From Escherichia phage vB_EcoS-101114BS4: a DNA stretch of 45,251 nucleotides. The stretch lies in sequence record NC_073061.1. The stretch is one strand, 5' to 3'. The position numbers and the translations under genes were made by a program. The notes under the pieces are model-generated. The model searched no databases and was not told the origin of the DNA. It saw only the letters and a program-made list of their open reading frames with translations. This document shows, one piece after another, positions 8,485-45,251 of the stretch. Within the stretch, counting starts at the first letter, position 1. Every line of letters starts with the position of its first letter.

Positions 8485-8617
8485 ACCGCCTTGCACCTTT
8501 GAGAATGCATCGGCAGATCCAGACGAAGACTTGCTGGTTGATGTTAAAAATATGGAATGCGGGGCTAAGCTAAGGGCGCAAGTGCTGGAGTTGCAGAAAA
8601 TAATTCGGGGGCCGTGA
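8387..8617 (+). CDS. o-spanin (Rz1-like outer membrane lipoprotein)
   Basis: MLRVLTVLIVVLMLSACGSS signal peptide with lipobox LSAC; starts inside the i-spanin gene in another frame. Confidence 0.65.
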   Translation: MLRVLTVLIVVLMLSACGSSKAPSTPLTESVYRPPCTFENASADPDEDLLVDVKNMECGAKLRAQVLELQKIIRGP

Positions 8618-8630
8618 TGGCCCCTTTTTT
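8607..8630. terminator. Terminator, possibly bidirectional, between convergent genes
   Basis: gggggcc-gtgat-ggcccc hairpin followed by tttttt on + and by a T-rich tract on -. Confidence 0.7.
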
Positions 8631-8635
8631 GTTAA

Positions 8636-10921: not shown

Positions 10922-12016
10922 ATGTCTTTAACAGTGTTCCAGCGTAAACTCGTTACCGCGGTTACGCAAATGATCCCCGACAACCTGAACGTGTTCAACG
11001 CTGCCGCTAATGGCGCTGTTGTTCTCGGTACAGGTGAAGTGCTGAAGGACGTTGTAGAAAAAATGTCCGTCGGCTTGATCGCCAACCTCGTTACTGACCG
11101 TAACGCATATGCGCCTGTTGGCACACCGGCAACCGCTAAAGTGCTGGCGCGTATGCTGACTAACTCGGTTAACCTCTCCGCGAAAGTGGGTCCGGTAGCA
11201 ATCACTAAGGCTATGATGGCTAAGATCGAAACCAACGTTAACAGCGTTGCGGCTGAGATTGCGGCACAGGCTACTCAAGCGATTATGCTGCATTACCTGA
11301 AAGCTGGTATCGGCGCAAGTAAAGCGGCGATCGAGAGCAACGCAGCGGCAGCATACACCCAACCGGCGCGCGTTGATGGCGTTGGCGGTCGTACCTTCCC
11401 TACCCTGGCAGACTTCCCGCTGGCGGCTTCTAAGTTCGGCGATCAGGCGTCTTTGATTAAGTCCTGGTTTATGGACGGCGTTACCTGGGCTAACTTCATT
11501 GCCTATCAGGCACTGCCTTCCGCTGAGCAGGTATTCGCGATCGGCGATCTGCAAGTAATGGGTGATGGCCTGGGCCGTCGTTTCATTATCTCCGATGCCG
11601 CTGCCGATGCTATGGGCGCTGGCAAAATGCTGGGTCTGGTCCCTGGCGCGGTTGCAGTTACCACCAACGGCCTCGATATGCTGGCGCAGGAAAAAGGCGG
11701 TAACGAGAACATCGAGCGCTGGTGGCAGGGTGAGTTCGACTTCAACGTGGCTGTTAAAGGCTACCGTCTGAAGGCGTCCGCTCGTACCCCGATCGAAGGC
11801 GTCCGCTCTTTTGCCCTGGGTGATATCACCACTAAGGACAACTGGGAACTGGATCAGGGCCAGGTAGACAACGCTCCGGCAACCGTCCAGGACGTTGGCG
11901 GCGAAAGCGATACTAAAGGCCGTCGTAAGGCGCAGACCGCACAGGCCGTGCCGACCCGTAACATCAAGGAAACGGCTGGCGTACTGGTTACGCTGACCGC
12001 GACCAGCGCGTCTTAA
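10922..12016 (+). CDS. Major capsid protein
   Basis: 364-aa ORF after the scaffold gene, followed by a strong terminator; assigned by size and synteny. Confidence 0.75.
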   Translation: MSLTVFQRKLVTAVTQMIPDNLNVFNAAANGAVVLGTGEVLKDVVEKMSVGLIANLVTDRNAYAPVGTPATAKVLARMLTNSVNLSAKVGPVAITKAMMAKIETNVNSVAAEIAAQATQAIMLHYLKAGIGASKAAIESNAAAAYTQPARVDGVGGRTFPTLADFPLAASKFGDQASLIKSWFMDGVTWANFIAYQALPSAEQVFAIGDLQVMGDGLGRRFIISDAAADAMGAGKMLGLVPGAVAVTTNGLDMLAQEKGGNENIERWWQGEFDFNVAVKGYRLKASARTPIEGVRSFALGDITTKDNWELDQGQVDNAPATVQDVGGESDTKGRRKAQTAQAVPTRNIKETAGVLVTLTATSAS

Positions 12017-12676: not shown

Positions 12677-13030
12677 ATGGCGGGCTTTGACTACGCGGGC
12701 TTAAAGCGGAAAGTTAATCCGCTGATTAAAAAATTCGGCATGACAGTTACCGTGACGCGTCCCGGATCTGTTGACCGCGTTAACGGCGACGAAGTGGTAA
12801 TCCCGCCGACCTCGTTTGATATCATCGGACTGCGTGAGGAGTACAAGCCACGCGAGATCGACGGTACCCTGGTCATTGCCGGTGATGTTAAATTCTTATG
12901 CCAGGCGGTGGAGCAATTGCAGGTAGGCGATCTGGTTAACCTGAATAACACAGACTACCGGGTCGTTAATACTAACCCCCTGCAACCGGCGGGCACGACC
13001 ATGCTGTTTCAATTACAGCTAAGGGGCTAA
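12677..13030 (+). CDS. Head-tail joining protein (putative)
   Basis: ATG at 12677 (MAGFDYAGLKRK...), 117 aa; the K/R-rich upstream extension in the ORF track is treated as non-coding. Confidence 0.5.
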   Translation: MAGFDYAGLKRKVNPLIKKFGMTVTVTRPGSVDRVNGDEVVIPPTSFDIIGLREEYKPREIDGTLVIAGDVKFLCQAVEQLQVGDLVNLNNTDYRVVNTNPLQPAGTTMLFQLQLRG

Positions 13031-14864: not shown

Positions 14865-14887
14865 GGGGCCAGCACGGCCCCTTTTTT
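14865..14887 (+). terminator. Rho-independent terminator
   Basis: ggggcc-agcac-ggcccc hairpin followed by tttttt. Confidence 0.7.
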
Positions 14888-14903
14888 ATTGGAGAATATT
14901 ACA

Positions 14904-15266: not shown

Positions 15267-15580
15267 TTGAGGCGGCGCGACGCTTTTATGGCCCGCCGCC
15301 ACCCTCCGAAGATGTAGCCGCAAGTTTATGGGGCGCGGCCCCCGAAGATGTTTGCCCGTCTGTTGCGCTATGGCCCGACAACGCGAAGATAGTCGCAGTC
15401 TTCACAGATTGCTCTACGCAATGGCGCACCGGATTCGGTGGGGCATACGGCATCGACTACGGAGTTCTGGAGTGGCTATTTAAGATGCACGGCATCGAAA
15501 ACGAGCAACGTGCATTTAAAGATATAAAGCTAATGGAACGGATCGCGCTTGACGAAATGGCGCAACAAAACCCCGCATAA
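14904..15580 (+). CDS. Tail assembly chaperone frameshift product (lambda GT-like), made by a -1 shift near 15257..15263
   Basis: The -1 frame stays open for about 105 codons after the slippery site (KKLIEAARRFYGPPPPSEDV...QQNPA) and stops at 15578-15580. Confidence 0.65.
15257..15263 (+). other. Programmed -1 ribosomal frameshift slippery heptamer A_AAA_AAC
   Basis: aaaaaac in X_XXY_YYZ register three codons before the chaperone stop; conserved G/GT architecture of tailed phages. Confidence 0.65.
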
Positions 15581-15583
15581 TGA

Positions 15584-15750
15584 AGCGGGACAAGCGGGAC
15601 GTCCCGATCTGTCCCGTTTTGCCCCGCCCCCTGTAAAACTGCATATCTACTCACTTTCATTGCATAAACTCAAAGCGGGACAAGCGGGACGTCCCGATCT
15701 GTCCCGCCCCCTAAATATGCATACCTATTCAGATTTCGTGCATAAAACAA
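15584..15750. repeat. Two tandem units of about 90 bp, each with GCGGGACAAGCGGGAC, the palindrome CGGGACGTCCCG and TGCATA motifs
   Basis: aagcgggacaagcgggacgtcccgatctgtcccg occurs at 15584 and 15674; palindromes at 15595-15606 and 15685-15696. Confidence 0.85.
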
Positions 15751-15907
15751 ACGGGACAGAAAGCGGGACAAACAAGGGGCGGGACAAAGCGGGACAGCAC
15801 CCCGTCCCCGTCAGTGCTGCCGCGGGTTTCAGCCGATCGGGACAGGCGGGACAACTCCCAGTCTTTCAGACTAGACGGGGGTCAATGGCCCCCCTCGTCT
15901 GAGACTG
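15750..15907. repeat. Copy A of a duplicated iteron-plus-hairpin element (copy B at 43319..43527)
   Basis: Four to six GCGGGACA direct repeats followed by the imperfect long hairpin cagtctttcagactagacgggggtcaatggcccccctcgtctgagactg (15859-15907). Confidence 0.85.
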
Positions 15908-15976
15908 AATAAGGTTTGTTTGAAATTCGCTGATACAATGTCAATCGGCAACTGCATAAAAAAAGGGGACTGCATA

Positions 15977-18622
15977 ATGGCAGATCAAGCAGCAGGCATC
16001 ACGCTAAAGGCGGATGTTGCACAAATCAGAACGGCGAATACGGTGCTGGACTCATTCGCGCAGAAGTCCGAAAACACCGAAAACAAGGTCAAGAAATTAA
16101 ACGACACCCTCGGCAACTCAAAAAAGGTGACGAGTGACGCCGCGGGCGGAATGGGGAAGCTGGCAACTGAATCGCAGCGGGCCGCCGATGGCATGACGAA
16201 GCAGGAGCGACTTGCCAACCGCTTAGGCATGTCGACCAAAAACCTGGGCTTCGCATCGCGTAACGCCGCATTTCAGTTACAAGATATCGCGGTCACGCTC
16301 GAGATGGGTATGCCGGTGCACCGCGTCATGATTCAGCAGCTACCGCAGTTAACCGGGGCATTCGGTGGACTGGGTAACACGCTGCGTTATGTTGCTGGCT
16401 TTCTCGGTCCGGTAGGGATCGGCCTTGCTGCGGTAACGGCAACGCTAGGCGTAGGCGTGGCTATTACGTCCCGCGCAGAAAACCAGGTAGCGGCGCTGAA
16501 TAAGACGCTGGCGCTATCCGGTAACATCTCGGGCCTCACCGCTAACCAGATCCTGGTGCTGTCGGAGAACGCCGAACGAATGGGCGGTTCATTCAGCAAG
16601 ACGCGTGACACAATTCAGGCGCTGGCGGCGGCAGGTGTGAAAGCGGGTGCTGACTTCGGCGCGCTGGCGAAAGTAGTGAACGACTTCGCGAAGGTGTCTA
16701 ATCAGCCGATCGCCGACGTGGTGGAGTCCATCTCCAAATTGTCCAACGACCCGGTGGGCGGCTTGCGCGCACTGGCGGACAAGTATCACGTCGTTACCGA
16801 GGCGCAGATCCAGCAGGTGCAGTCACTGGTTACGACGGGTCGCGAAACGGAAGCGGTTGCGCTGGCTAACAAAACCGCAGCGGCGTCGTTCACCAGCATG
16901 ACCAACGAGATCAAGTCCAACATGGGTACGCTTGAGCGGTCGATGAACGTCGTAACATCGGCAGCTAAATCTATGTGGGACGCCATCCTGGATGTGGGCC
17001 GCGCGCAGTCTTCGAATGAATCCGAGATGAAAGCGCGTGAATCATTGCAGCGCATGACCACGGCCTACTACGCTGAGATGAAAGCGGTCAACGCTGCCGG
17101 TGGGGTAATGACTGAGGCGCAGAAAGCACGAATTAACATGCTTTATAGCGAACTGGTTGCACAGGAAAAAGTAGTAGCGTCGCTTACCCTGCGCAACCGT
17201 GCGGAGCGTGACAACGCCAGCGCCGCGGACAAATCAGCGAAGGCGAACGAGGAGGCCAACCGCACCGCCCGCGACCGTGCCGCGTTCGAGAAGGAATTTG
17301 CCACCAACGCTAAGAAGCGCGCCGACGAGATCGCCCGCCTCAATTTGCTGAATAAGCGCGGTGTGATTAACGAGAAAGAACTGGCTGAGGCGGTGAAGCA
17401 GGTCAACGAGCGCTACAAAGACCCCGCACCGAAGAAGGCGGCAGCAATTCGCGTCGATGCCGGTGTTAAAATGCTGGAGGTCGCGCGGAGCGAACTGGCA
17501 CAGCTTAAGGAGTCCGGCAAGCAGATCGAGGCCAATGCCACAACGCAGACCCGCACGCAGCGCGCACAGGCCGCGTTGAATAAGCTGGTGGCGGATAATG
17601 AGCAGATGGTCGCAGCAAGCAAGGAGCGCACTCTAACGGCAGCAGAAAAGCAGCAAATGGCTGAGTTCGAGGCGGTTAAAGCGGTACGAGAGCAGATCGT
17701 CGAAGAAGCCAAATTGCTGGACGCGAAAGAGAAGCAGATCAAGGCACACGCCCAGGTCGAGGCATTCATCAAGAACCAGAATGCCGAGCTAAGGGCCACC
17801 GCTGCGGGCTATGCGCTTTCCACTCGCGAAGCGGCTAACCTGCGCGAAGAATTACAGCTAATTGACCGCCTTCAGCGTGTCGGGGCTAACGATACCGATA
17901 TCGACAACGCGGTGTCTAAACTGCGCGAAGTGCAGGAAGCACAGACCGGTGCTAACGCCTCGTTGTGGGATGGCTTCAGCCGCGGGCTTAAGGATAGCGT
18001 GGATGAAATGGGGAACGGCTACACGCAGATGACGTCACTCACAAAATTCACGTTCGGCGCTATGCAGGACACGATGAACGAGTTTTTCGAGACGGGCAAG
18101 CTGAACGCGAAGGATATGGTTAAGTCCATCCTGAGCGAGTTAATCAAGCTGGCTACCTCACAGGCGTTTAAGTCCATCGTTAGCGCTTTCGGTGGGGACG
18201 GCGGCAAAAACGGATTGTTCGGCGCTATCTTCTCTGGCCTTACTAAGAACGCGGACGGCGGAGCGTACGCAGGGGGCAATCTCGCGGCCTATTCGGGGCA
18301 AGTGGTAAGCCAGCCTACCTTTTTCAGTTATGGCGTTCAGGCGTTCGCTAAGGGCGCTGGATTGATGGGTGAGGCGGGGCCTGAGGCAATCATGCCACTG
18401 AAGCGCGGGCCGGATGGGAAACTGGGCGTTGCCGCTGCCGGTGCTGGTGGGGGTGGGATGATTGTAACAACCAACGTGAACATGGGTACCGGTAAGACGG
18501 ACACCAGTGTGAGCGGACCGGACCCACGCACCGCGCAGGCGTTCGGAAAGCAAATCACCGAGTCGGTCAAGGCCGAGATCGTGAAAGCGACGAAACCGGG
18601 TGGAGTACTTTACAAACGATGA
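15977..18622 (+). CDS. Tail tape measure protein
   Basis: About 880 aa, alpha-helical Ala/Gln/Glu-rich coiled-coil-like, Gly-rich C-terminal region; start chosen at ATG 15977 with AGGGGA RBS. Confidence 0.85.
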   Translation: MADQAAGITLKADVAQIRTANTVLDSFAQKSENTENKVKKLNDTLGNSKKVTSDAAGGMGKLATESQRAADGMTKQERLANRLGMSTKNLGFASRNAAFQLQDIAVTLEMGMPVHRVMIQQLPQLTGAFGGLGNTLRYVAGFLGPVGIGLAAVTATLGVGVAITSRAENQVAALNKTLALSGNISGLTANQILVLSENAERMGGSFSKTRDTIQALAAAGVKAGADFGALAKVVNDFAKVSNQPIADVVESISKLSNDPVGGLRALADKYHVVTEAQIQQVQSLVTTGRETEAVALANKTAAASFTSMTNEIKSNMGTLERSMNVVTSAAKSMWDAILDVGRAQSSNESEMKARESLQRMTTAYYAEMKAVNAAGGVMTEAQKARINMLYSELVAQEKVVASLTLRNRAERDNASAADKSAKANEEANRTARDRAAFEKEFATNAKKRADEIARLNLLNKRGVINEKELAEAVKQVNERYKDPAPKKAAAIRVDAGVKMLEVARSELAQLKESGKQIEANATTQTRTQRAQAALNKLVADNEQMVAASKERTLTAAEKQQMAEFEAVKAVREQIVEEAKLLDAKEKQIKAHAQVEAFIKNQNAELRATAAGYALSTREAANLREELQLIDRLQRVGANDTDIDNAVSKLREVQEAQTGANASLWDGFSRGLKDSVDEMGNGYTQMTSLTKFTFGAMQDTMNEFFETGKLNAKDMVKSILSELIKLATSQAFKSIVSAFGGDGGKNGLFGAIFSGLTKNADGGAYAGGNLAAYSGQVVSQPTFFSYGVQAFAKGAGLMGEAGPEAIMPLKRGPDGKLGVAAAGAGGGGMIVTTNVNMGTGKTDTSVSGPDPRTAQAFGKQITESVKAEIVKATKPGGVLYKR

Positions 18623-24844: not shown

Positions 24845-24866
24845 GGGGCCATCCGGCCCCTTTTTT
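24845..24866. terminator. Terminator (bidirectional) between convergent J-like and RBP-like genes
   Basis: ggggcc-atcc-ggcccc hairpin followed by tttttt; nearly identical sequence recurs at 27669..27690. Confidence 0.75.
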
Positions 24867-25830
24867 AATACATGTTAGGTATGACGAGTAACGGGGTTGG
24901 GACGGCTATGTTGCGGTTAGGCATCTGGAATTGCTGCCGTGAGTAGTTACCGATTACGCGATTACGCGCCGCACTAACCACGTTGCCCGCCATGCGTATC
25001 CCGTTCATTCGAACGTGGTTGTAGCCGCTGTTGTTCTCAATGAGCGCGCCGGTATATGAAAGCTGTACGAGGCTATTACCGATATTCTGACCGCCGGTGC
25101 CGATATTAATTACCGAATTGAGCACAAACGGCTTGTTAACGGTCGAGAACGTGACCTGCCCCTGGTTGTTCGTCATGGTGATACCAGTCCCCGGTGATGG
25201 AGGCGTATTGTTGAAGATAACCAGATCCAAGTCCACTTCGGCCCCGACGTCATCAATCCCGCCATAAGACGAATTGCGGACGATGATACTACTACCATCG
25301 AAGCCTACCGATACGTTGCCATTATCCCAGCGCGCGAACGGGATACCGCCCACAGGCAAAGGCATACTACCGTTCACGTGCACGCGCTGCGCGTAGCGGC
25401 AGGTCATTAACCGGGACACGTTGGAAATCGCGGTGAAGTCTGTCGAGTTCGCCACCAGTAAGCCCGCATTGCGTGACCCCACCGGCAGCACTTCCATAAT
25501 TATACCAGCCCATTGCGGGAGGCCGCTGTATGCGTTATGCGCGTCCGCGCCTCGAAGGATAATTCCACTATCCCCGTTGCGCTGTACCGACGTCACGTAG
25601 AACGGGTCGGGGAGAACCAGCGTCTGGTCGAACACCTCAAGCACTTCTACCGGGCGCGTGAGTGCAACGACAAGGTCCGACCCTGGTGTTAGCGGGGTAT
25701 TAATGGTCAGCGTCTTGTCGGACTGGCAGCGCTGATCAAACGTAGTGCAGTATGACGGAGCGCGCAAACCGGCAGTTATCTCCATAATCGGTCGTCCGTC
25801 GTTGTAGTCGATGAGTATTCCAGCGCCCAT
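24865..25830 (-). CDS. Putative receptor-binding protein (tail tip RBP)
   Basis: 321-aa Asn/Gly/Ser/Thr-rich protein antisense to and directly downstream of the J-like gene; start at MGAGILIDY with GGAG RBS; function inferred from position and composition only. Confidence 0.4.
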   Translation of the reverse strand: MGAGILIDYNDGRPIMEITAGLRAPSYCTTFDQRCQSDKTLTINTPLTPGSDLVVALTRPVEVLEVFDQTLVLPDPFYVTSVQRNGDSGIILRGADAHNAYSGLPQWAGIIMEVLPVGSRNAGLLVANSTDFTAISNVSRLMTCRYAQRVHVNGSMPLPVGGIPFARWDNGNVSVGFDGSSIIVRNSSYGGIDDVGAEVDLDLVIFNNTPPSPGTGITMTNNQGQVTFSTVNKPFVLNSVINIGTGGQNIGNSLVQLSYTGALIENNSGYNHVRMNGIRMAGNVVSAARNRVIGNYSRQQFQMPNRNIAVPTPLLVIPNMY

Positions 25831-26135: not shown

Positions 26136-27662
26136 ATGGCAGCGGGTACTATCTTATTAACCAATAACAGCCGGTCGGTAACGGGGACCGGTACGACGTT
26201 TTCGGCGTTCAAAGCCGGTGATTTCCTTTCTGTCGTAGTGGGGCAAGTCCCCTACACTATCGCGGTTGAATCTATCGAAAGCAACACCGGGCTTACTTTG
26301 GTGCTGCCGTTTGACGGCCCAACGGCATCCGGCCTCGCATGGGATGGCGTTGCGCGCGATACCATGTCGCTGGCAACGATGGGCGTAACAGTCCAGGCAC
26401 AGAAAGCACTGCGTATGCTTATTGCGGACGAGAACAACTGGCGTGCAATCTTCGGCGACGCTGAAGAAATCACAGTTACGTTACCGAACGGCACAGTGAT
26501 GCAGGGTATGTCGTGGGGCTACCTGTCGCAGCTAATGAAGCAGATCGACCCGGTGGAAATGCTCAACCTGCAACAACAAGCCGCCGCATCTGAGGTCGCA
26601 GCGAAAGGATACCGCGACGAGGCCGAAGGCTTCAAGAACGATACTAATACCATCAAGACGCAAACCAACCAGATTAAGACTGATACGCAGGCGATCCACG
26701 ACGCCACCAATACGATCAAGACGCAAACCGACCAGATTAAGACCGATACGCAGGCCATCAAGGACCAGACCAACCAGATTAAGACTGACACTGGCGTTAT
26801 TCGAGATCAGGCCAACACGGCGAAGACTGACGCACAAGCGGCCCGAGATGCAGCGCAGGGATACCGCGACGAAGCCGAAGGCTTCAAAAACTCAATCGAC
26901 CCCACTAAGTTCATGCAGAAGTCGCAGAACCTGGCGGACGTTGCCGACAAGTACGCCGCGCGCAACATTCTGGGGGTGGGCGATGACAGTATCGTTAAAC
27001 ACGCAACATTACGCCTGAACGGTGGCGAATCATTAACATTCAATGAAGTGGAGGCTAACGGCTTAATTCTATCAAACGCCTCGATGGGAATCGACAATTG
27101 GGTAGGCTTCACCATGCATAAATGGTACGCCGACTGGACACGCGCAGGAATTGTGCGTGCGGGTGACACCCACGTGTCAGACTACCGCATCCACGTGTGG
27201 AAGAATGGGGCTACTGAGGCGCTATTCCGCTTCCTGCCGGACGGGCGTCTGATTCAGGGTAACAGCGGCAACCCATCGTCGGCGGAGTTTCAGAAAGCAC
27301 CGCTATCAGACCGGGACGTGAAGAAAGAAATCCAATACACGGACGGCGCGGAAAGTTACAACCGAGTACGGCAATGGCTACCAGCAATGTTTAAGTATAA
27401 GGAGTCGGACGTACAGCGTTACGGCCTTATCGCGCAGGACCTGGCCATGATTGACCCGGAATATGTGCACTTGCTGCCAGGACACGGAATCTACGAGGAC
27501 GTTGTTGTTGGCGTGGACGAGGAAGGGAACGAGATTGTCGAGCAAAAGGAGATCGGATACACCGACGATGTGCTGTCGCTTGACAGTAACGTGCTGTTGA
27601 TGGATCTATGCGCCGCCTTCGTTCACCTGTTGCAGAAAGTAGAAAAGCTGGAAGGTAAGTAA
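26136..27662 (+). CDS. Lateral tail fibre with C-terminal intramolecular chaperone-like domain
   Basis: 508 aa; shaft repeats (TNTIKTQTNQIKTDTQAI); C-terminal segment with SDRDVKKEIQYTD...YGLIAQDL resembles the autoproteolytic chaperone domain of phage fibres and endosialidases. Confidence 0.65.
   Translation: MAAGTILLTNNSRSVTGTGTTFSAFKAGDFLSVVVGQVPYTIAVESIESNTGLTLVLPFDGPTASGLAWDGVARDTMSLATMGVTVQAQKALRMLIADENNWRAIFGDAEEITVTLPNGTVMQGMSWGYLSQLMKQIDPVEMLNLQQQAAASEVAAKGYRDEAEGFKNDTNTIKTQTNQIKTDTQAIHDATNTIKTQTDQIKTDTQAIKDQTNQIKTDTGVIRDQANTAKTDAQAARDAAQGYRDEAEGFKNSIDPTKFMQKSQNLADVADKYAARNILGVGDDSIVKHATLRLNGGESLTFNEVEANGLILSNASMGIDNWVGFTMHKWYADWTRAGIVRAGDTHVSDYRIHVWKNGATEALFRFLPDGRLIQGNSGNPSSAEFQKAPLSDRDVKKEIQYTDGAESYNRVRQWLPAMFKYKESDVQRYGLIAQDLAMIDPEYVHLLPGHGIYEDVVVGVDEEGNEIVEQKEIGYTDDVLSLDSNVLLMDLCAAFVHLLQKVEKLEGK
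26608..26892 (+). repeat. In-frame tandem repeats inside the fibre gene
   Basis: 63-bp unit (accatcaagacgcaaaccaaccagattaagactgatacgcaggcg...) repeated about 2.6 times, flanked by two copies of ggataccgcgacga(g/a)gccgaaggcttcaa. Confidence 0.8.
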
Positions 27663-27668
27663 TGAGAA

Positions 27669-27690
27669 GGGGCCATACGGCCCCTTTTTT
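27669..27690. terminator. Terminator (bidirectional) between the fibre gene and the end of the leftward operon
   Basis: ggggcc-atac-ggcccc hairpin followed by tttttt. Confidence 0.75.
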
Positions 27691-28264
27691 AGTTTGAGTT
27701 TTCCCAGTCCATTTTGCGCCGTACTAACGGGCTTTCGTAATATTCCTTGCCCTCCACTTCCACCAGAGGCCAGTCGTTGACAATCACGTATGGTTCCGCA
27801 ATATCCTCAATCACGCCGTGTGCGCTATGTTGCCCGAACGATACGCCCACCAGGATAACACCGGCAACCCGACGGGTGAGATACTCGCGAGCGCAACGCG
27901 CCTCTACCAGTCCGCGACGGATGCCGCTGGTGGCTTTGACCTCGTAGGTCCAGACGGCATCAATCATGTGCTCACGGAAGTCGGGGCCGGACTTAACCTT
28001 GCGTTTACCGACCATGATAATATCGCCGCGGTCGATAGTATTGGCGCTAAACAGGCCGGTACGCATAAGCAAGCCTTGCGGGATACAACTACGCCCGCCT
28101 GCCTGCCCTTCAAGGTACATGCCAGCAAACATCTCGCCCAGCACACCGACAAGTCGGCTTTGCTTGCACGCGTCAGACTTTAATCGCCACTGGTCAAACT
28201 CGACGCTCGCCAACATTGCCGCTATGTGGAATTGTTTACCGGTTATTTCGTATTCGCCGTACAT
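27689..28264 (-). CDS. Hypothetical protein, possible PD-(D/E)xK-type nuclease
   Basis: 191 aa; segment GPDF...IDAVWTYEVK is compatible with a PD-(D/E)xK core but is weak evidence. Confidence 0.45.
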   Translation of the reverse strand: MYGEYEITGKQFHIAAMLASVEFDQWRLKSDACKQSRLVGVLGEMFAGMYLEGQAGGRSCIPQGLLMRTGLFSANTIDRGDIIMVGKRKVKSGPDFREHMIDAVWTYEVKATSGIRRGLVEARCAREYLTRRVAGVILVGVSFGQHSAHGVIEDIAEPYVIVNDWPLVEVEGKEYYESPLVRRKMDWENSN

Positions 28265-36552: not shown

Positions 36553-37341
36553 TTAACGGCGGCGACGTTTACGTGGTGCTTCGTCTTCGTCGTCGTCGTC
36601 CTCATCTTCGTCATCGCGGGACTTGCGACGCTTGCGAGGTTTTTCGTCTTCCTCGTCTTCGTCATCGTCATCACGACGCTTGGATTTCTTGGACTTGCGC
36701 GGCTTATCATCTTCGTCATCGTCATCACGACGTTTGGACTTCTTAGCCTTGCGCGGTGCTTCATCTTCGTCATCGTCGCCCAGGTCGTCATCGGAACAAG
36801 AAGACCCGCCGCCACCGAAGGAGTCACCATCGTCACGGAAGCGAAGACCCATCAAGCCAGCACCAAGACCTTTACCGTTGGTGTTGTTCCACGCCCAAAT
36901 ATCCAGGGACACGTTGCAATAACAACCGGAATAGATTTCCTGGCCTTCGATCTCGTCGCCGTCGATGGTCAGACCCTGTTCGGTCTGCTTCTCGCCCAGT
37001 GACGTTTGAATGTTAGGCTGTTTGAACGATTTGGCGTTGATGTACAACATGCCTTCGAATTCTTCGGTTACTTCGTCGCGCTCGTCGCCGTCACGAACTG
37101 CGCATTCCTTAGAATCCTGGGCGTAGTGGCGGTCCATCCACTTATCGGCGTTCTTCTCGGATTTCAGCTTATCGGTAAGCACTGCGCGCGCTGCCGCTTC
37201 CACTTTGTCCACCTGCGGATCTTCTTTATCAAGAAGAATCACGGCACGGTATGCCGGTTTTTGTCCATCCTGTTTAGGGGTATCACGTTCCCAAATTTTC
37301 AGGAAGCATACGCGTACATTTTTCAGGTTGACTTTAGCCAT
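36553..37341 (-). CDS. Putative ssDNA-binding protein with a highly charged repetitive C-terminal tail
   Basis: Start MAKVNLKNVRV with GAGGA RBS; position between nuclease and polymerase as in conserved phage replication modules; C-terminal 80 aa are alternating acidic and basic repeats. Confidence 0.45.
   Translation of the reverse strand: MAKVNLKNVRVCFLKIWERDTPKQDGQKPAYRAVILLDKEDPQVDKVEAAARAVLTDKLKSEKNADKWMDRHYAQDSKECAVRDGDERDEVTEEFEGMLYINAKSFKQPNIQTSLGEKQTEQGLTIDGDEIEGQEIYSGCYCNVSLDIWAWNNTNGKGLGAGLMGLRFRDDGDSFGGGGSSCSDDDLGDDDEDEAPRKAKKSKRRDDDDEDDKPRKSKKSKRRDDDDEDEEDEKPRKRRKSRDDEDEDDDDEDEAPRKRRRR
36575..36790 (-). repeat. In-frame tandem repeats encoding the charged tail of the SSB-like protein
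   Basis: About 57-bp unit repeated about three times (...atcttcgtcatcgtcatcacgacg(c/t)ttgga(t/c)ttcttgg...) giving DDDDEDxKPRKxKKSKRR repeats. Confidence 0.75.
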
Positions 37342-39709: not shown

Positions 39710-40228
39710 TTAATCTTCTAATTCGAAATAAGTTTCGACGATTGCTTTTAATTCCTGGTGGAACTCTTCCACGTCGTCATCTTCCAGCTTGGCAACGGAT
39801 TTAATTTCGAATTCTTCCAGCAGGTCGTCAAATTCGTCGTTTGCGTCGTCGTCATCACCGCCAGCAATAATAGCGGCATACTGCTTGATTTCGTCGCGCA
39901 TCTCTTTCAGCGGATCGGCATCTTTCTTGCCTTTACCTTTCGCCGGTGCTTTCTTAGATTTCGCCGGGGCTTCTTCTTCGTCGTCCGCGTCGTCTTCTTC
40001 TACGGCTTCTTTCTTAGCCTTGCCCTTTGCTGGCGCTTTTTTGGTCTTAGCCGGTGCTTCGTCTTCAGCGTCGTCATCTTCGACTACTTCTTCTTTTGCC
40101 TTGCCCTTAGCCGGGGCTTTCTTCGCTTCCTGTTTACCAACGGCAGCGCCAGCAGTTTCATAATGCTTAGCGATGGTTTCCAGTGCTACTACGCCGCGTG
40201 TGATCAGGTTTACGATTTGCTCAAACAT
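39710..40228 (-). CDS. Lys/Ala/Glu-rich repeat protein (histone H1-like composition), first gene of the leftward operon
   Basis: ATG 40228 (MFEQIVNL) with GGAG RBS; repeats EAPAKTKKAPAKGKAKKE; the upstream in-frame ORF extension is treated as 5' leader. Confidence 0.55.
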   Translation of the reverse strand: MFEQIVNLITRGVVALETIAKHYETAGAAVGKQEAKKAPAKGKAKEEVVEDDDAEDEAPAKTKKAPAKGKAKKEAVEEDDADDEEEAPAKSKKAPAKGKGKKDADPLKEMRDEIKQYAAIIAGGDDDDANDEFDDLLEEFEIKSVAKLEDDDVEEFHQELKAIVETYFELED

Positions 40229-40633: not shown

Positions 40634-40963
40634 ATGCATATCAACGACGCTATCGAAATGTTAACTAAGACCGTAAGCGGTGAGACAAGCCGGTCCTGGG
40701 CTTATACCGATGCCGTTGGTGCGGCGTTATTTGAAATCGAACGCCTGCGCAGTGTCGAAAAAGAATTGCGCGCCAAGCTGGAATTACTCAACGGTACGGC
40801 AGCAAGCAAGCTGCAAAAACACAATGAAGAAATGGAAGAATACAAAAAGCAGGTTATCCGTTTACGCGACGAGGGCAAGTCCTGGGCGATGATTGCCGAG
40901 TTGACCGGAATTAATCAGAGCACCGTGCGCTCCTGGGTACGCAATAATAAAACTTCTAAGTAA
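40634..40963 (+). CDS. Putative transcriptional regulator with C-terminal HTH
   Basis: 109 aa; C-terminal SWAMIAELTGINQSTVRSWVRN is HTH-like; first gene of the rightward unit. Confidence 0.5.
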   Translation: MHINDAIEMLTKTVSGETSRSWAYTDAVGAALFEIERLRSVEKELRAKLELLNGTAASKLQKHNEEMEEYKKQVIRLRDEGKSWAMIAELTGINQSTVRSWVRNNKTSK

Positions 40964-40973
40964 GGCAACGGCA

Positions 40974-43238
40974 ATGAGCTTAATTAAATTCGCAGTAACA
41001 AGACCCGCTAAAAAAGGCGAAAAAGCCAGGGCGGAAAACTTCGAGATGACCACTGATGAGTTTTTCGAATTTATCAATGATGCGAAAGAAATCTCCTCGG
41101 TGCACATCAACAAGACTGAAGATAAAGCCGAGTATGCGCGCCGCAAGCGTAAGGCCGATGGCATCGTGGCCTATACCAATGATGGGTTACGCCGCAAGAC
41201 CAGTGCGGTCGACCGCTCGATCCTGTTCTTCGATATTGACCGCACCGACACCCGCACATTACGCCGCTGCCGTAAAGCGTTCACCGACGCTGGTCTGGAG
41301 CATGTATTCCACACCACGACCGGCGACCGTCACCCACTGAAAGGCGGCACACGTTGCGCCCGTTTCCTGGTGCTCACTGACAAGCCTGTACCGGCTGAAG
41401 ACCTGGGCCGCGTCCAGTATGCGCTATTAGACCAACTGGGCCTGTCAGATGTGGACTTCGACGATTGTACGAAAGACACCAACCGCCTTATGTACCTGCC
41501 TCACCAGCAGTCTGTCATAAAGTGCCACTACGGAAAGCGCGCCCGTGTCCGTCGTCTGCTTCGCCTGGCTGACAAGCTGGGAGTGGAGAAAGAGGAAGTG
41601 CGCCGCGAACTGACCCAGGGCGCCGATGGCGTGGCGGACGGCATTCTGGATTGGTGCTTCCAGGCTGGCTTTGAACCACTGTCATCCGGTCGCGGTTATG
41701 AAGTGCCTTGCCCGAACGAGCACCTGCATAGCGGCGGCGGGTCGACGGCTATCATGGTTAAGGATGGCGAGATCCGTTTCAAGTGTATGCACACCGGCAA
41801 CGAATGCTGTTCCGAACTGAATAAACACCAGCACCTGGCGCTGCGTCTGATCGGCATCCCGGACCACTTGAACGTTGAACCGCACAACATGTCACGCAAG
41901 CAAATCGCCGCCATCCTTCCGGGACTGGACGACGAGGAAGTGGAATCATGCTATGAACATATTGTTGATGCGGTCGGCGACGGCGACGAGTACGGCGAAT
42001 GCACCGACGCTGACCTGGACAACGAACCTGTTGCACTATTCAGTAAGCACGACCCGATCATCGAAGGCCTGGTCAACTTCAAATCGACCTGGTATCTTGC
42101 CGGTGAGTCGAACATTGGTAAGTCGTTCTACGTGCTGGGCCAGATGGCGTCCGTATCTGCCGGTATTCCGTTTGGTGGCGCGAAGGTCGTCCAGTCGCAT
42201 TGCTTCTATTTCGACGCGGAAGGTGGCGAAGCCTCCAACCAGCGTAAGGAAGCACTGCAGATTAAATACGAGCACGACCTCGACAAGCTGCACATTATCG
42301 ACCTGCAATCACGCGGCTGGGATATTACCAGCAAGTCAGGCTTGCGCGAGGTTATCAGCTTTATCAACCGCACCGCTAACGGGGAGCCGGTTGGCCTGGT
42401 GGCCTTCGACTCACTCAACCAGACTGTAGCGCTGCGGTCCGCTGATGCCAAACCGTTCGACGAGAACAACGCCAGCGATATGGGCGAAGTGGTCAAGGCG
42501 CTGAAGGCCATTGCGGAAAATACAGGCGGCAGTGCGGGCGTCATCCATCACCCGGCTAAGGGTGCAAACGGCAGCAGATCCCCACGCGGGTCCGGCGCGC
42601 TTCATGGTGCTGTCGATTCTGCGTTCTTCCTGGAACAGCCGGACGATAATCAGCCAGGCCAACTCAACCTGTATCACGAAAAATCCCGTAACGGCATCAA
42701 GCAAGCGCCGCGTGGCTTCGTCCTGCTCAAATGCAAGGTGAAGGTGGATCTCCGTAAGTCCGAGGCGTTCGAAGCCCACCAGTCCACCAGCACCGGTCCG
42801 GACTTCGGCGATGTGGTTGCCGGTTGGGACGTCAAGCCAATTGCATCCACGCCACGCGACGAGACTCTCTACCTCGTACCGGTCGCCCTGGCACCGTTCG
42901 CTGTCGAACAGGCTAAGGCCGCAGGCAAGGCCGCAGTTAAGGAAGAGAACACCGCCGGACCGCGCAACGAAAAAGAGAAGGTGCTTTATGCGGCACTGGA
43001 AAAACTGATGGAAGATAACCCGGACCATACTGGATTCAGTAAATCGGCAATTGTCCGCCAGGCTGGACTCGCGAAAGGCGGAACATCGACGAAGGCAATC
43101 GACGATATGGTGGAGCGCGGCGTGCTCGGTTTTTATACAGATCCACACACCGGGGCCATCTATGGGTCGTCGAATCTGGTCATCAAATCGGATATCCCAA
43201 TCACGCTTTCGGCGACCGATGATGACCTGAAAGATTAA
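40974..43238 (+). CDS. Primase-helicase (primase/polymerase N-domain, zinc-binding region, P-loop helicase)
   Basis: 754 aa; ILFFDIDRTD, cysteine-rich CPNEHLH...FKCMHTGNECC, Walker A GESNIGKS, Walker B-like LVAFDSL. Confidence 0.7.
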   Translation: MSLIKFAVTRPAKKGEKARAENFEMTTDEFFEFINDAKEISSVHINKTEDKAEYARRKRKADGIVAYTNDGLRRKTSAVDRSILFFDIDRTDTRTLRRCRKAFTDAGLEHVFHTTTGDRHPLKGGTRCARFLVLTDKPVPAEDLGRVQYALLDQLGLSDVDFDDCTKDTNRLMYLPHQQSVIKCHYGKRARVRRLLRLADKLGVEKEEVRRELTQGADGVADGILDWCFQAGFEPLSSGRGYEVPCPNEHLHSGGGSTAIMVKDGEIRFKCMHTGNECCSELNKHQHLALRLIGIPDHLNVEPHNMSRKQIAAILPGLDDEEVESCYEHIVDAVGDGDEYGECTDADLDNEPVALFSKHDPIIEGLVNFKSTWYLAGESNIGKSFYVLGQMASVSAGIPFGGAKVVQSHCFYFDAEGGEASNQRKEALQIKYEHDLDKLHIIDLQSRGWDITSKSGLREVISFINRTANGEPVGLVAFDSLNQTVALRSADAKPFDENNASDMGEVVKALKAIAENTGGSAGVIHHPAKGANGSRSPRGSGALHGAVDSAFFLEQPDDNQPGQLNLYHEKSRNGIKQAPRGFVLLKCKVKVDLRKSEAFEAHQSTSTGPDFGDVVAGWDVKPIASTPRDETLYLVPVALAPFAVEQAKAAGKAAVKEENTAGPRNEKEKVLYAALEKLMEDNPDHTGFSKSAIVRQAGLAKGGTSTKAIDDMVERGVLGFYTDPHTGAIYGSSNLVIKSDIPITLSATDDDLKD

Positions 43239-43318
43239 TTTTTGCGCGCATTGGTTGCCAAATTGAGTGTTTTTAGCTGGTCGCATTGGTTGCCGTGTAG
43301 TGTAAATATAGTGAATAG

Positions 43319-43527
43319 TTATGCAGTTTTATTGCATAAAGTAAGCGGGACAAAAAGCGGGACAGACAGGGGGCGGGACAAAGCGGGACAGCACCCCTGT
43401 CCCGCCCCGGATGGCGCGGCTTGCAGGGGGGCGGGACAGGCGGGACAAACCCCAGTCTTTCAGACTAGACGGGGGTCAGTTGGCCCCCCTCGTCTGAGAC
43501 TGCATAAAATCCGGGATTGCATAATGT
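43319..43527. repeat. Copy B of the duplicated iteron-plus-hairpin element, flanked by inverted TGCATAA motifs
   Basis: Six GCGGGACA repeats (43345-43450), hairpin cagtctttcagactagacgggggtcagttggcccccctcgtctgagactg (43453-43502), ttatgcag at the left and ctgcataa at the right edge. Confidence 0.85.
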
Positions 43528-44543: not shown

Positions 44544-45176
44544 ATGAAATTACTATTCCGCCGTAACTCAGATGGCTATATCCTGAAGCCGATCCAGACC
44601 TTATCGAACTGGGTACGCCTCCACCACGTTGCAAGCGATAAAGTCTGGTGGGCGACTAAGGCAAAGCTGCCGGAGTACTACGAAATCCTCACACACGATA
44701 TCGAGCGCGGCGATGTGCTGCGGGATATTCGCGACGGGCAATTGTGGGTCGTGGAATACACCTACCGGCACGGCCTGCGTATGACGTCCCGCAAGGATGG
44801 CGTAGCGGGCAACATGGTCAAGGGCATGACGTACTTCGGGCTAATCAACTACGAACGAGTGGGCCGCAAGTACAGCCTGCGTGCCCGCCAGCCACATGAG
44901 CGAGCGAACGCCATAGCTGACGTCGTCAACCGCGTAACGCGTGAGGTGGCGCAGAAGATGAGCGTTGAGTTCCGCAAATCCCAGCCAGCGTATGCGACCT
45001 ACGACGCCCGCCAGGTGCAGGCCAGACTTAACAAGGCCACGCATGAGATAATTAATCACGTTGATGCCGTGACGAATGCGCAGCGCATGGCCCGCGAATA
45101 CGGCGTAGGATTCATCCGTGTCGAGCCAGACGGCAGCATGTCCGCTATAGACCCGCGCTCGGTAATACTGAAATGA
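44544..45176 (+). CDS. Hypothetical protein
   Basis: 210 aa from ATG 44544 (MKLLFRRNSDGY...) with AAGGAG RBS; its 3' end lies in the terminal repeat. Confidence 0.55.
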   Translation: MKLLFRRNSDGYILKPIQTLSNWVRLHHVASDKVWWATKAKLPEYYEILTHDIERGDVLRDIRDGQLWVVEYTYRHGLRMTSRKDGVAGNMVKGMTYFGLINYERVGRKYSLRARQPHERANAIADVVNRVTREVAQKMSVEFRKSQPAYATYDARQVQARLNKATHEIINHVDAVTNAQRMAREYGVGFIRVEPDGSMSAIDPRSVILK

Positions 45177-45251
45177 GCGCGACTATCCGTGATATGCTTA
45201 TGCATAACCGCTTTGAGATAGGCGGGCGAGTATTCTGCAATTACTTCGTGG
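45125..45251. repeat. Terminal direct repeat, second copy (identical to 1..127)
   Basis: Exact 127-bp match to the window start. Confidence 0.9.

What the first reader, a model, noticed from the sequence alone, without database searches (positions are those of the whole stretch)
15584..15750. Tandem 90-bp units with a perfect CGGGACGTCCCG palindrome adjacent to the frameshift ORF stop
Two near-identical tandem units (starting 15584 and 15674) each carry GCGGGACAAGCGGGAC, the 12-bp palindrome CGGGACGTCCCG, a downstream GTCCCG, and paired TGCATA motifs. The array starts 5 bp after the stop of the chaperone frameshift product. The ORF-track protein 15549..15902 across it has repeat-driven Gly/Gln/Ala/Arg/Pro composition and is better explained as DNA repeats. 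Only two units and no spacer-like unique inserts, so it is not a CRISPR array.
Basis: seen in the sequence. Interest (0 to 1): 0.55.

Follow-up and report, generated by a model that had tools for sequence, protein, structure and literature searches.

The report
Repeat-rich non-coding region, probable replication origin
The tandem repeats are real, non-coding and conserved in a whole genus of E. coli phages; they are one of two copies of a repeat-plus-hairpin module that most likely serves as a binding platform for the phage's own replication protein, which is a familiar kind of element rather than a new one.

Summary
The window is a complete Dhillonvirus (HK578/SO-1-like) coliphage genome. The finding lies in a 397-bp non-coding gap (15581-15977) between the tail chaperone genes and the tape measure gene.

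A 34-nt head is repeated exactly at 15583 and 15673, but the units are 90 and 79 nt and their tails are diverged. A third, larger unit follows at 15752-15907.

That third unit is repeated at 82% identity at 43303-43507, directly after the primase-helicase gene. GenBank record GQ502199 (phage SO-1) already marks both places as repeat regions A and B.

ORF 15549-15902 is not conserved in any frame. The CGGGAC/GTCCCG cores are more conserved than their spacers.

Four further related lineages carry a repeat-rich module directly after the primase-helicase gene. One uses the same motif, CGGGACA. The other three use TTGCGAGT, GGGGAGA and CGCCCCG. The helicase ends in a predicted winged-helix domain that diverges fastest.

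Best reading (confidence 0.4): an iteron-type origin or cis-acting replication region, comparable to SaPI rep-ori, pRN1, and SPP1 oriL/oriR. Main rival (0.3): a transcription or RNA-level control cassette. Nothing here was tested experimentally.

The parts
15583..15616 (+). Unit 1 head: two direct cores (GCGGGAC at 15585 and 15594) abutting two inverted cores (GTCCCG at 15601 and 15611). It contains the palindrome CGGGACGTCCCG.
   Evidence: the cores are conserved in 15 relatives
15617..15672 (+). Unit 1 tail: a moderately A+T-rich spacer (up to 60% AT against 45.6% for the genome) with TGCATA at 15640 and 15661. In most relatives 9 to 12 nt shorter, with TTTT directly after the head.
15673..15706 (+). 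Unit 2 head, identical to the unit 1 head. In several relatives the second direct core is replaced, giving GGGACAG-GGGTG-CTGTCCC.
15707..15751 (+). Unit 2 tail: a moderately A+T-rich spacer with TGCATA at 15718 and 15739. It is homologous to 43303-43343 upstream of the region B array.
15752..15858 (+). Core array of the shared module: direct cores at 15753, 15763, 15779 and 15789, an inverted GTCCCC at about 15806, a G+C-rich segment, then direct cores at 15838 and 15846.
15859..15907 (+). A 49-nt imperfect hairpin or palindrome (CAGTCT..AGACGGGGG-loop-CCCCCCTCGTCT.AGACTG). Its stems are invariant in the genus and its loop varies.
   Evidence: an A:T to G:C double change in L036; GACGGGGG..CCCCTCGTC is also present in phage eiAU
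15931..15939 (+). TGATACAAT, which resembles an extended -10 promoter element, upstream of the tape measure gene. It is conserved in all region A copies and absent from region B.
   Evidence: reading of the sequence only, since the promoter scan found none
15953..15977 (+). Two TGCATAA motifs flanking the ribosome binding site of the tape measure gene (ATG at 15978).
43303..43452 (+). Region B: an A+T-rich lead (GAATAGTTATGCAG..TGCATAAA) plus a core array. Direct cores lie at 43345, 43357, 43373 and 43383, an inverted core at 43399, and direct cores at 43431 and 43440.
43453..43502 (+). Region B copy of the imperfect hairpin.
40974..43238 (+). Primase-helicase gene (754 aa; AAA_25/RepA-type helicase core; predicted C-terminal winged helix at about residues 665-740). 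Candidate binder of the repeats.
40634..40963 (+). Gene for a 109-aa helix-turn-helix protein directly upstream of the primase-helicase gene. Alternative candidate binder.

Best explanation
The tandem units are part of 'region A', the larger of two copies of a cis-acting DNA module. Each copy has three parts: arrays of a 7-bp core (CGGGACA) in direct and inverted orientation, about 40-bp moderately A+T-rich spacers, and a conserved imperfect hairpin.

The ancestral copy (region B, 43303-43507) sits directly after the primase-helicase gene. I propose that this is the phage's iteron-type origin of replication. The primase-helicase, through its C-terminal winged-helix domain, or the small helix-turn-helix protein encoded just upstream, would bind the repeats. 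It would then oligomerise, open the adjacent A+T-rich or hairpin DNA, and load itself.

Region A, which holds the finding, would be a second origin or a cis-acting helper site bound by the same protein. It would be comparable to SPP1 oriR, or from my own recollection to the P4 crr. It carries two extra iteron-plus-spacer units.

Shown here: the anatomy, the conservation, the non-coding status, the position next to the helicase gene in several lineages, and the predicted winged-helix fold. Inferred: protein binding, which protein binds, and origin activity.
For: 1. The cores are selectively conserved. Mean column conservation is 0.94 for cores and 0.82 for spacers in region A (permutation p < 1e-4), and 0.93 against 0.88 in region B (p = 0.04). 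The loci were retrieved through the hairpin, not through the cores.

2. The cores occur in both orientations with variable spacing of 8 to 16 bp and alternate with A+T-richer segments.

3. A repeat-rich module lies directly after the primase-helicase gene in four further lineages. A clade whose primase-helicase is 68% identical uses the same CGGGACA and the same hairpin. Klebsiella phage 37P2 uses TTGCGAGT at two loci, each followed by a long imperfect hairpin. Salmonella phage St162 uses GGGGAGA at one locus, with hairpin-like inverted repeats seen by eye only. Edwardsiella phage eiAU uses CGCCCCG at two loci, the second again between the chaperone and tape measure genes; only that second locus shows the hairpin.

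5. Published precedents that I read. SaPI Rep and PriRep helicases recognise 6 to 12 short iterons immediately after rep through a C-terminal winged helix, with a central AT-rich region (PMC9371898). Plasmid pRN1 has a small DNA-binding protein gene, then a primase-helicase-winged-helix gene, then an essential stem-loop after the gene (PMC4234260). SPP1 has two origins of direct repeats plus an AT-rich element, one of them among the late genes (PMC6316719).

6. The 37P2 hairpins differ in sequence between the two loci but both fold. One A:T to G:C double change keeps the Dhillonvirus hairpin.
Against: - There are no experimental data, and I found no paper on these regions.
- Third-codon GC skew shows no step at either locus.
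- The A+T-rich segments reach only 60-68% AT.
- All modules seen (both copies in Dhillonvirus, 37P2 and eiAU, and the single St162 copy) point the same way as the surrounding genes, and the Dhillonvirus, St162 and 37P2 copies sit next to promoter-like sequences. An origin does not need that.
- The winged-helix fold is generic and can mediate protein-protein contacts; RPA32C is among the hits.
- The N-terminal 170 residues of the helicase diverge as fast as the C-terminus.
- The small helix-turn-helix proteins upstream also differ between lineages, so the binder is not identified.
- Kagunavirus RP180 has a homologous helicase (34% identical) but no such array.
Confidence: 0.4

Rival explanations
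1. The module is a transcription or RNA-level control cassette. It would act at operon junctions as a terminator or attenuator, an RNA processing or stabilising hairpin, or a nut/put-like antitermination element, followed by a restart promoter. The G-rich repeats and their C-rich inverted copies would form RNA hairpins.
For: - All modules seen are co-oriented with the flanking genes and lie at operon junctions: primase gene to late genes; after the major-tail-protein terminator (14865-14890) and before the tape measure gene; after a head gene in 37P2.
- Promoter-like elements flank the modules: TATAGT at about 43309, TGATACAAT at 15931, TTGCAA-17-TAGATT at about 43662, and TTGCAA-17-TAATAT in St162.
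- Other annotators call the unit 1 head a terminator. In most relatives it is followed by TTTT.
- One-sided changes in predicted stems often give G.U pairs on the + strand.
- Two lineage-specific copies per genome recall lambda nutL/nutR and HK022 putL/putR (my own knowledge).
Against: - RNAalifold on 32 copies gives a covariation term of 0.03 and no compensatory pair. One-sided changes in the GGGGCGGGAC/GTCCCGCCCC stem are not compensated.
- The main hairpin has no U tract after it.
- Both strands fold equally well.
- There is no Rfam match at the gathering threshold, and only sub-threshold hairpin-like matches at E <= 10.
- Conservation of a 7-mer as a motif in both orientations, with variable spacing, fits protein-DNA sites better than RNA.
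- The distance from the array to the next promoter is not constant: about 30 nt in region A and about 160 nt in region B.
Confidence: 0.3
2. The repeats are a binding array for a phage regulator, for example the 109-aa helix-turn-helix protein, with a role other than replication. Possible roles are a roadblock or insulator, repression of late genes early in infection, or titration of the regulator.
For: The core motif is conserved in both orientations. A lineage-specific small helix-turn-helix gene lies upstream of the helicase gene in every lineage, and its family changes where the repeat motif changes: HTH_23 in Dhillonvirus, HTH_3 in 37P2, Cro/CI type in St162. In eiAU the module is packed with the dispersed promoter-associated motif GCAACCAA.
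Against: There is no direct link between this protein and the motif. A different motif, TTGGTTGC, already marks most intergenic promoter regions. This idea does not explain the conserved hairpin.
Confidence: 0.17
3. The repeats are selfish or neutral repetitive DNA, such as a miniature mobile element or a recombination hot spot, with no function for the phage.
For: There are two dispersed copies at 82% identity, and variants are shared in a mosaic pattern between region A and region B copies of different phages. One unverified record (TH11) carries a duplication of about 480 bp that ends in the element.
Against: The element is present at the same two sites in all 157 matching phage records, 150 of them at 80% or more coverage. 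It is also present in a clade whose helicase is only 68% identical. Stretches of 25 to 50 nt are invariant while the flanking coding DNA varies at silent sites. There are no target-site duplications or terminal inverted repeats.
Confidence: 0.06
4. ORF 15549-15902, or another ORF in the gap, encodes a real protein.
For: An open frame of 117 codons exists in this genome.
Against: Frame and length are not conserved on either strand in 15 relatives. There is no Pfam hit. G-rich repeats are free of stop codons by composition.
Confidence: 0.02

Closest known systems
SaPI (staphylococcal pathogenicity island) pri-rep-ori replicon
   Same: A helicase, in some islands fused to a primase, carries a C-terminal winged helix. 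Six to twelve short repeats (iterons) lie immediately after its gene, in both orientations, with an AT-rich stretch. Iteron sequences are specific to each lineage (PMC9371898).
   Different: The SaPI Rep belongs to a different helicase clade from the RepA/AAA_25-type core here. SaPI iterons flank one central AT-rich region. Here there is an added conserved hairpin, G+C-rich arrays, and a second copy elsewhere in the genome. Binding was not tested here.
Plasmid pRN1 replicon (orf56, orf904 and the downstream stem-loop) and related phages such as BIP-1
   Same: The order is the same: a small DNA-binding protein gene, then a primase-helicase-winged-helix gene, then a structured non-coding element directly after the gene. 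In pRN1 the stem-loop is essential, and its structure is conserved while its sequence is not (PMC4234260).
   Different: pRN1 has an SF3 helicase and a stem-loop of about 100 nt without iteron arrays. Here the hairpin is about 49 nt, invariant within the genus, and preceded by repeats.
Bacillus phage SPP1 oriL and oriR
   Same: A 44-kb siphovirus with two origin-like regions of direct repeats plus an AT-rich element, one at the replication genes and one in a non-coding stretch among the late structural genes. Both are bound by one initiator (PMC6316719).
   Different: The SPP1 initiator gp38 is a separate origin-binding protein with a helicase loader and a DnaB-type helicase. oriL lies inside gene 38. 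There is no sequence relationship to the element here.
Satellite phage P4 ori and crr bound by the alpha primase-helicase (from my own knowledge; not checked in a paper here)
   Same: A primase-helicase with a C-terminal DNA-binding domain binds an 8-bp iteron in two separate regions. As I recall, crr consists of two tandem direct repeats of about 120 bp, each with several iterons. That resembles the tandem units of the finding.
   Different: The helicase family and the iteron sequence differ.
Lambda nut and HK022 put antitermination sites (from my own knowledge)
   Same: Two homologous, lineage-specific copies per genome, each co-oriented with transcription near the start of a long operon, and each containing hairpins.
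   Different: nut and put sites are short (about 30 to 70 nt), have no arrays of a 7-mer in both orientations, and act as RNA. No covariation supports an RNA structure here.

Membership tests
Iteron-type replication origin next to its initiator gene (SaPI, pRN1 or P4 type) | Lies immediately after the gene for the initiator or helicase | tested here: met
   Met for region B: the gene ends at 43238 and the module spans 43303-43507. Also met in L039, 37P2, St162 and eiAU. Not met for region A, the finding itself, which lies between the tail chaperone and tape measure genes.
Iteron-type replication origin next to its initiator gene (SaPI, pRN1 or P4 type) | Multiple short repeats in direct and opposite orientation, with an A+T-rich unwinding stretch | tested here: inconclusive
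   The repeats are clearly present: 10 direct and about 5 inverted cores in region A, and 6 direct and 1 inverted in region B. The A+T-rich segments reach only 60-68% AT and are not centrally flanked by opposed iterons as in SaPI.
Iteron-type replication origin next to its initiator gene (SaPI, pRN1 or P4 type) | The initiator carries a sequence-specific DNA-binding domain that changes together with the iteron sequence | tested here: inconclusive
   A C-terminal winged helix is predicted. It is among the most divergent segments between lineages with different repeats. The fold is generic, and the N-terminus diverges as much.
Iteron-type replication origin next to its initiator gene (SaPI, pRN1 or P4 type) | Specific binding by the initiator and origin activity, meaning replication starts there | not testable with these tools
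   This needs band-shift or footprinting assays, plasmid replication assays, or marker-frequency sequencing. GC3 skew gave no signal.
CRISPR array | Direct repeats of constant length separated by unique spacers of similar length | tested here: not met
   The repeat cores are 7 nt at irregular spacing of 8 to 16 nt, and some are inverted. The 90/79-nt units have homologous, not unique, tails.
Intrinsic (Rho-independent) terminator | A G+C-rich hairpin followed directly by a U tract | tested here: inconclusive
   The unit 1 head is followed by TTTT in most relatives and is annotated as a terminator in HK578 and WF5505. In this window 10 nt (ATCTGTCCCG) separate the palindrome from TTTT. The + strand scan found no site inside the region. 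The unit 2 head and the main hairpin have no U tract.
Structured RNA element (nut/put-like element or an Rfam family) | A secondary structure supported by compensatory changes, or a match to a curated model | tested here: not met
   No Rfam match at the gathering threshold, and only sub-threshold hairpin-like matches. RNAalifold found 0 compensatory pairs in 32 copies. One compensatory change appears in a more distant clade, in the hairpin only.
Protein-coding gene (ORF 15549-15902) | A reading frame conserved in relatives | tested here: not met
   Frames and lengths differ on both strands in 15 relatives. There is no Pfam hit.

The most novel reading that the evidence does not exclude
The module is not a plain origin. 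It would be a dual-use nucleoprotein and hairpin switch shared by Dhillonvirus, Eiauvirus and some Guernseyvirinae. Lineage-specific 7-mer arrays plus a conserved bulged hairpin, duplicated into the late operon, would couple replication to late transcription. For example, initiator bound at region A could stall forks or RNA polymerase, timing the switch to concatemer synthesis or setting tail-gene dosage.
Probability: 0.12. Interest if true: 0.6.

Novelty: new member of a known kind. Interest (0 to 1): 0.35.

Why it matters
Dhillonviruses are common coliphages. They are used in the BASEL collection and in work on anti-phage defence, yet I found no published origin, promoter map or cis-acting element for them.

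If regions A and B are origins bound by the phage's own primase-helicase, they give a defined minimal replicon for engineering. They would also be a target for origin-titration ("Per"-type) resistance. And they would offer a natural series of four motif variants for studying how a winged-helix helicase changes its DNA specificity.

For annotation, the finding shows that ORFs called across these gaps, and the single "terminator" features placed there, should be replaced by a repeat or origin-like feature.

Tried and rejected
- Rfam at the gathering threshold and at E <= 10: only sub-threshold miRNA-like hairpin hits.
- RNAalifold covariation on 32 copies: none. The hairpin stems do not vary within the genus, so they cannot be tested there.
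- GC skew and third-codon GC skew to locate an origin. The whole-sequence skew follows gene orientation. GC3 skew shows only a peculiarity of the tape measure gene.
- Sigma-70 promoter scan: no hits in either region. All promoter statements are therefore my own reading of the sequence.
- Sense against antisense folding energies of the hairpins: equal.
- CsrA-sponge idea (GGA in CGGGACA and GGGGAGA): dropped, because 37P2 and eiAU use motifs without GGA.
- Sigma-54 and sigma-32 promoter readings of the TGCATA and TTGAAA motifs: the spacing does not fit.
- Packaging (pac) site: rejected as unlikely, because both regions are far from the small terminase gene. A few GenBank records do open or end in or near region A, most simply because assemblies break at repeats.
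- Plasmid search for a minimal replicon carrying this helicase: only a phage-like 44-kb record.
- Literature searches on SO-1, EP23, Dhillonvirus and Jerseyvirinae found no study of these regions. The rest of the SO-1 GenBank note ("possible ...") could not be retrieved.
- A pattern hit in a high-GC actinobacterial contig (L038), with a dense GGGACAG/CTGTCCC array, is probably unrelated.

Full report
**What the window is**

The window is a complete phage genome. Bases 1-127 repeat at 45125-45251, which is an assembly overlap. It matches 157 Dhillonvirus records at 80-99.5% identity; these are HK578/SO-1-like siphoviruses of E. coli.

The finding lies in a 397-bp gap (15581-15977). Upstream are the tail assembly chaperone genes: 14889-15266 matches PF08748, and the downstream part 15266-15580 matches DUF1799. 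Downstream is the tape measure gene, with its ATG at 15978.

**The observation**

- The 34-nt string AAGCGGGACAAGCGGGACGTCCCGATCTGTCCCG is present twice, exactly, at 15583 and 15673.
- The palindrome CGGGACGTCCCG occurs only at those two places, against 0.10 expected.
- GCGGGAC occurs 23 times in the genome against 9.0 +/- 2.9 expected. Sixteen of these copies fall in two clusters.
- TGCATAA is concentrated in the same two clusters.

Some corrections are needed. The units are 90 and 79 nt long and are identical only in the head. A third, larger unit follows at 15752-15907. It has six more direct cores, an inverted copy and a 49-nt imperfect hairpin (15859-15907).

Most importantly, this third unit is repeated at 82% identity over 205 nt at 43303-43507. 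That position is directly after the 754-aa primase-helicase gene (40974-43238).

**Previous annotation**

GenBank GQ502199 (Sodalis phage SO-1, 2009) marks "region A" (between gp16 and the tape measure gene) and "region B" (after the helicase/primase gene). Both are described as repeat regions [quoted passage not shown]. The end of that note could not be retrieved.

Other records mark a repeat_region (phage rolling) or a single terminator (HK578, WF5505). I found no paper that studies these regions. The element has therefore been noticed before but not explained.

**Not coding**

In 15 relatives the longest open frames over the gap differ in frame, length and boundaries on both strands. Indels of 1, 9 and 12 nt are common. 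Pfam finds nothing in the ORF. The frame is open because G-rich repeats contain no stop codons.

**What is conserved**

I collected both loci from IMG/VR genomes and GenBank records, retrieving them through the hairpin so that the cores were not pre-selected.

Core positions (CGGGAC/GTCCCG) are more conserved than the sequence between them. The values are 0.94 against 0.82 in region A (permutation p < 1e-4), and 0.93 against 0.88 in region B (p = 0.04).

Spacing between cores varies from 8 to 16 nt. In several phages the second direct core of unit 2 is replaced, so that GGGACAG-GGGTG-CTGTCCC remains. In others the core array itself contains the CGGGACGTCCCG palindrome. The basic unit is therefore two direct and two inverted cores.

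The unit number (two extra units plus the core module) is constant in the 15 Dhillonvirus region A copies aligned and in LM40P1. At least one extra unit is seen in the clade whose helicase is 68% identical. One unverified record has a 480-bp duplication.

**The hairpin**

The hairpin stems do not vary within the genus; only the loop varies. RNAalifold therefore finds no covariation: the covariation term is 0.03 and there are 0 compensatory pairs.

Three observations further out support a real hairpin.
- The 68% clade shows one A:T to G:C double change (AGAC/GTCT becomes GGAC/GTCC), with changes otherwise confined to unpaired positions.
- Edwardsiella phage eiAU has GACGGGGG..CCCCTCGTC, with the same TC bulge, in a hairpin at the same relative place.
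- The two hairpins of Klebsiella phage 37P2 differ in stem sequence but both fold.

Both strands fold equally well. There is no Rfam match.

**Comparison across genera**

I used homologues of the primase-helicase to find relatives.

- A clade at 68% identity has region B and region A with the same core and the same hairpin.
- Klebsiella phage 37P2 (49% identity) has 11 copies of a different 8-mer, TTGCGAGT/ACTCGCAA, in two clusters. One lies directly after the helicase gene and one after a head gene. Each is followed by a long imperfect hairpin.
- Salmonella phage St162 has one module after the helicase gene. It shares the lead-in GAATAGTTATGCAG with the Dhillonvirus region B, but its repeat is GGGGAGA, with C-rich inverted copies.
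- Edwardsiella phage eiAU has two loci, one after the helicase gene and one again between the chaperone and tape measure genes. They share CGCCCCG repeats and dense GCAACCAAC arrays.
- Kagunavirus RP180, whose helicase gene is inverted, has no such array.

The constant feature is thus a repeat-rich module directly after the primase-helicase gene, with a lineage-specific motif. The second copy is a lineage-specific duplication into the late operon.

**The candidate binder**

Between lineages with different repeats this segment is 26-34% identical, against 63-69% in the helicase core. Between the two lineages with the same repeat it is 59%.

There are caveats. The N-terminal 170 residues diverge as much, and the fold is generic. 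The small helix-turn-helix protein encoded just upstream also changes family between lineages.

**Interpretation**

The anatomy and position match experimentally known replicons.
- SaPI Rep and PriRep helicases bind 6 to 12 short iterons immediately after rep through a C-terminal winged helix (PMC9371898).
- Plasmid pRN1 has a small DNA-binding protein gene, a primase-helicase-winged-helix gene, and an essential stem-loop after the gene (PMC4234260).
- SPP1 has two origins of direct repeats plus an AT-rich element, one among the late genes, both bound by one initiator (PMC6316719).

I therefore rate an iteron-type origin or cis-acting replication region as the best explanation, at 0.4.

The main rival, at 0.3, is a transcription or RNA-level cassette. 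All the modules seen are co-oriented with their genes and lie at operon junctions. In the Dhillonvirus, St162 and 37P2 copies, promoter-like sequences flank them. In most relatives the unit 1 head is followed by TTTT.

GC3 skew is uninformative, and the A+T-rich spacers are only 60-68% AT.

Binding, the identity of the binder and origin activity are all inferred, not shown.

**Verdict**

The finding is real, non-coding and under selection, but it is only part of a larger two-locus element that GenBank already flags. It most likely belongs to a known kind of element, a phage replication origin next to its initiator gene. It is interesting mainly as an uncharacterised example with a neat natural series of motif changes. 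Interest: 0.35.

Noticed in passing
window, 20 sites, e.g. 1748, 1771, 9994, 10008, 28952, 28964, 30624, 30641, 37396, 37412, 40433, 43251, 43286, 43567, 43658, 43689: TTGGTTGC occurs 20 times against 1.9 expected. Nearly all copies are intergenic, often in pairs, and often next to TATAGT-type -10 elements. It looks like a dispersed operator or promoter-associated motif. It is also dispersed in Klebsiella phage 37P2 (13 copies) and forms dense arrays in both eiAU modules.
   Followed up: partly
window, whole genome (e.g. 43528, 17636, 19525, 40796): ACGGCAGC is the most frequent 8-mer in the genome: 21 copies on the + strand and 9 on the - strand, mostly inside genes. The related CGGCAGCA and ACGGCAGC are the two most frequent 8-mers in phage 37P2. 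One copy sits at the end of the module near the next gene in region B and in both 37P2 modules; St162 has the variant ACGGCAAC there. Unexplained.
   Followed up: partly
window 15978-18622 (tape measure gene): There is an extreme purine bias at third codon positions: GC3 skew +0.40 and AT3 skew +0.46. Every other gene lies between about -0.35 and +0.25. The bias is uniform along the gene.
   Followed up: no
window 8608-8633, 14865-14890, 24847-24867, 27669-27694: A family of near-identical strong intrinsic terminators (GGGGCC-loop-GGCCCCTTTTTT). One lies directly after the major tail protein gene, 700 nt upstream of the finding.
   Followed up: no
L043 (Klebsiella phage 37P2, ON107243.1) 1605-1855 and 10944-11207; L045 (Salmonella phage St162, MF158037.1) 12686-12960; L047 (Edwardsiella phage eiAU, KF772233.1) 26895-27300 and 42930-43015 plus 1-221: Analogous modules with different repeat motifs: TTGCGAGT, GGGGAGA, and CGCCCCG plus GCAACCAAC. 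The linear eiAU record starts and ends inside its region A array, and a reverse-strand gene is inserted between the chaperone genes and the array.
   Followed up: partly
L041 (Escherichia virus TH11, MT446389.1, UNVERIFIED) 100-1000: A direct duplication of about 480 bp covers region A plus the 3' end of the chaperone gene, joined at CAACTGCATA. It is either a real recombination product at the element or an assembly error.
   Followed up: no
L038 (IMGVR_UViG_3300037429_000012) 1250-1500: An unrelated high-GC, actinobacterial-type contig carries about 17 copies of GGGACAG/CTGTCCC within 250 nt. They lie inside the 3' part of a gene for a membrane protein with a C-terminal helix-turn-helix. This is probably a coincidental motif match but is a real array.
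   Followed up: partly
window 36581-36777 and 39889-40123 (- strand genes): In-frame tandem repeats of 54 and 87 nt lie inside two early genes. They encode acidic and basic low-complexity stretches (Tandem Repeats Finder scores 188 and 210).
   Followed up: no
window 15266: The downstream chaperone frame (DUF1799) has no start codon at its junction with the upstream frame; it begins IEAARR.
   Followed up: partly
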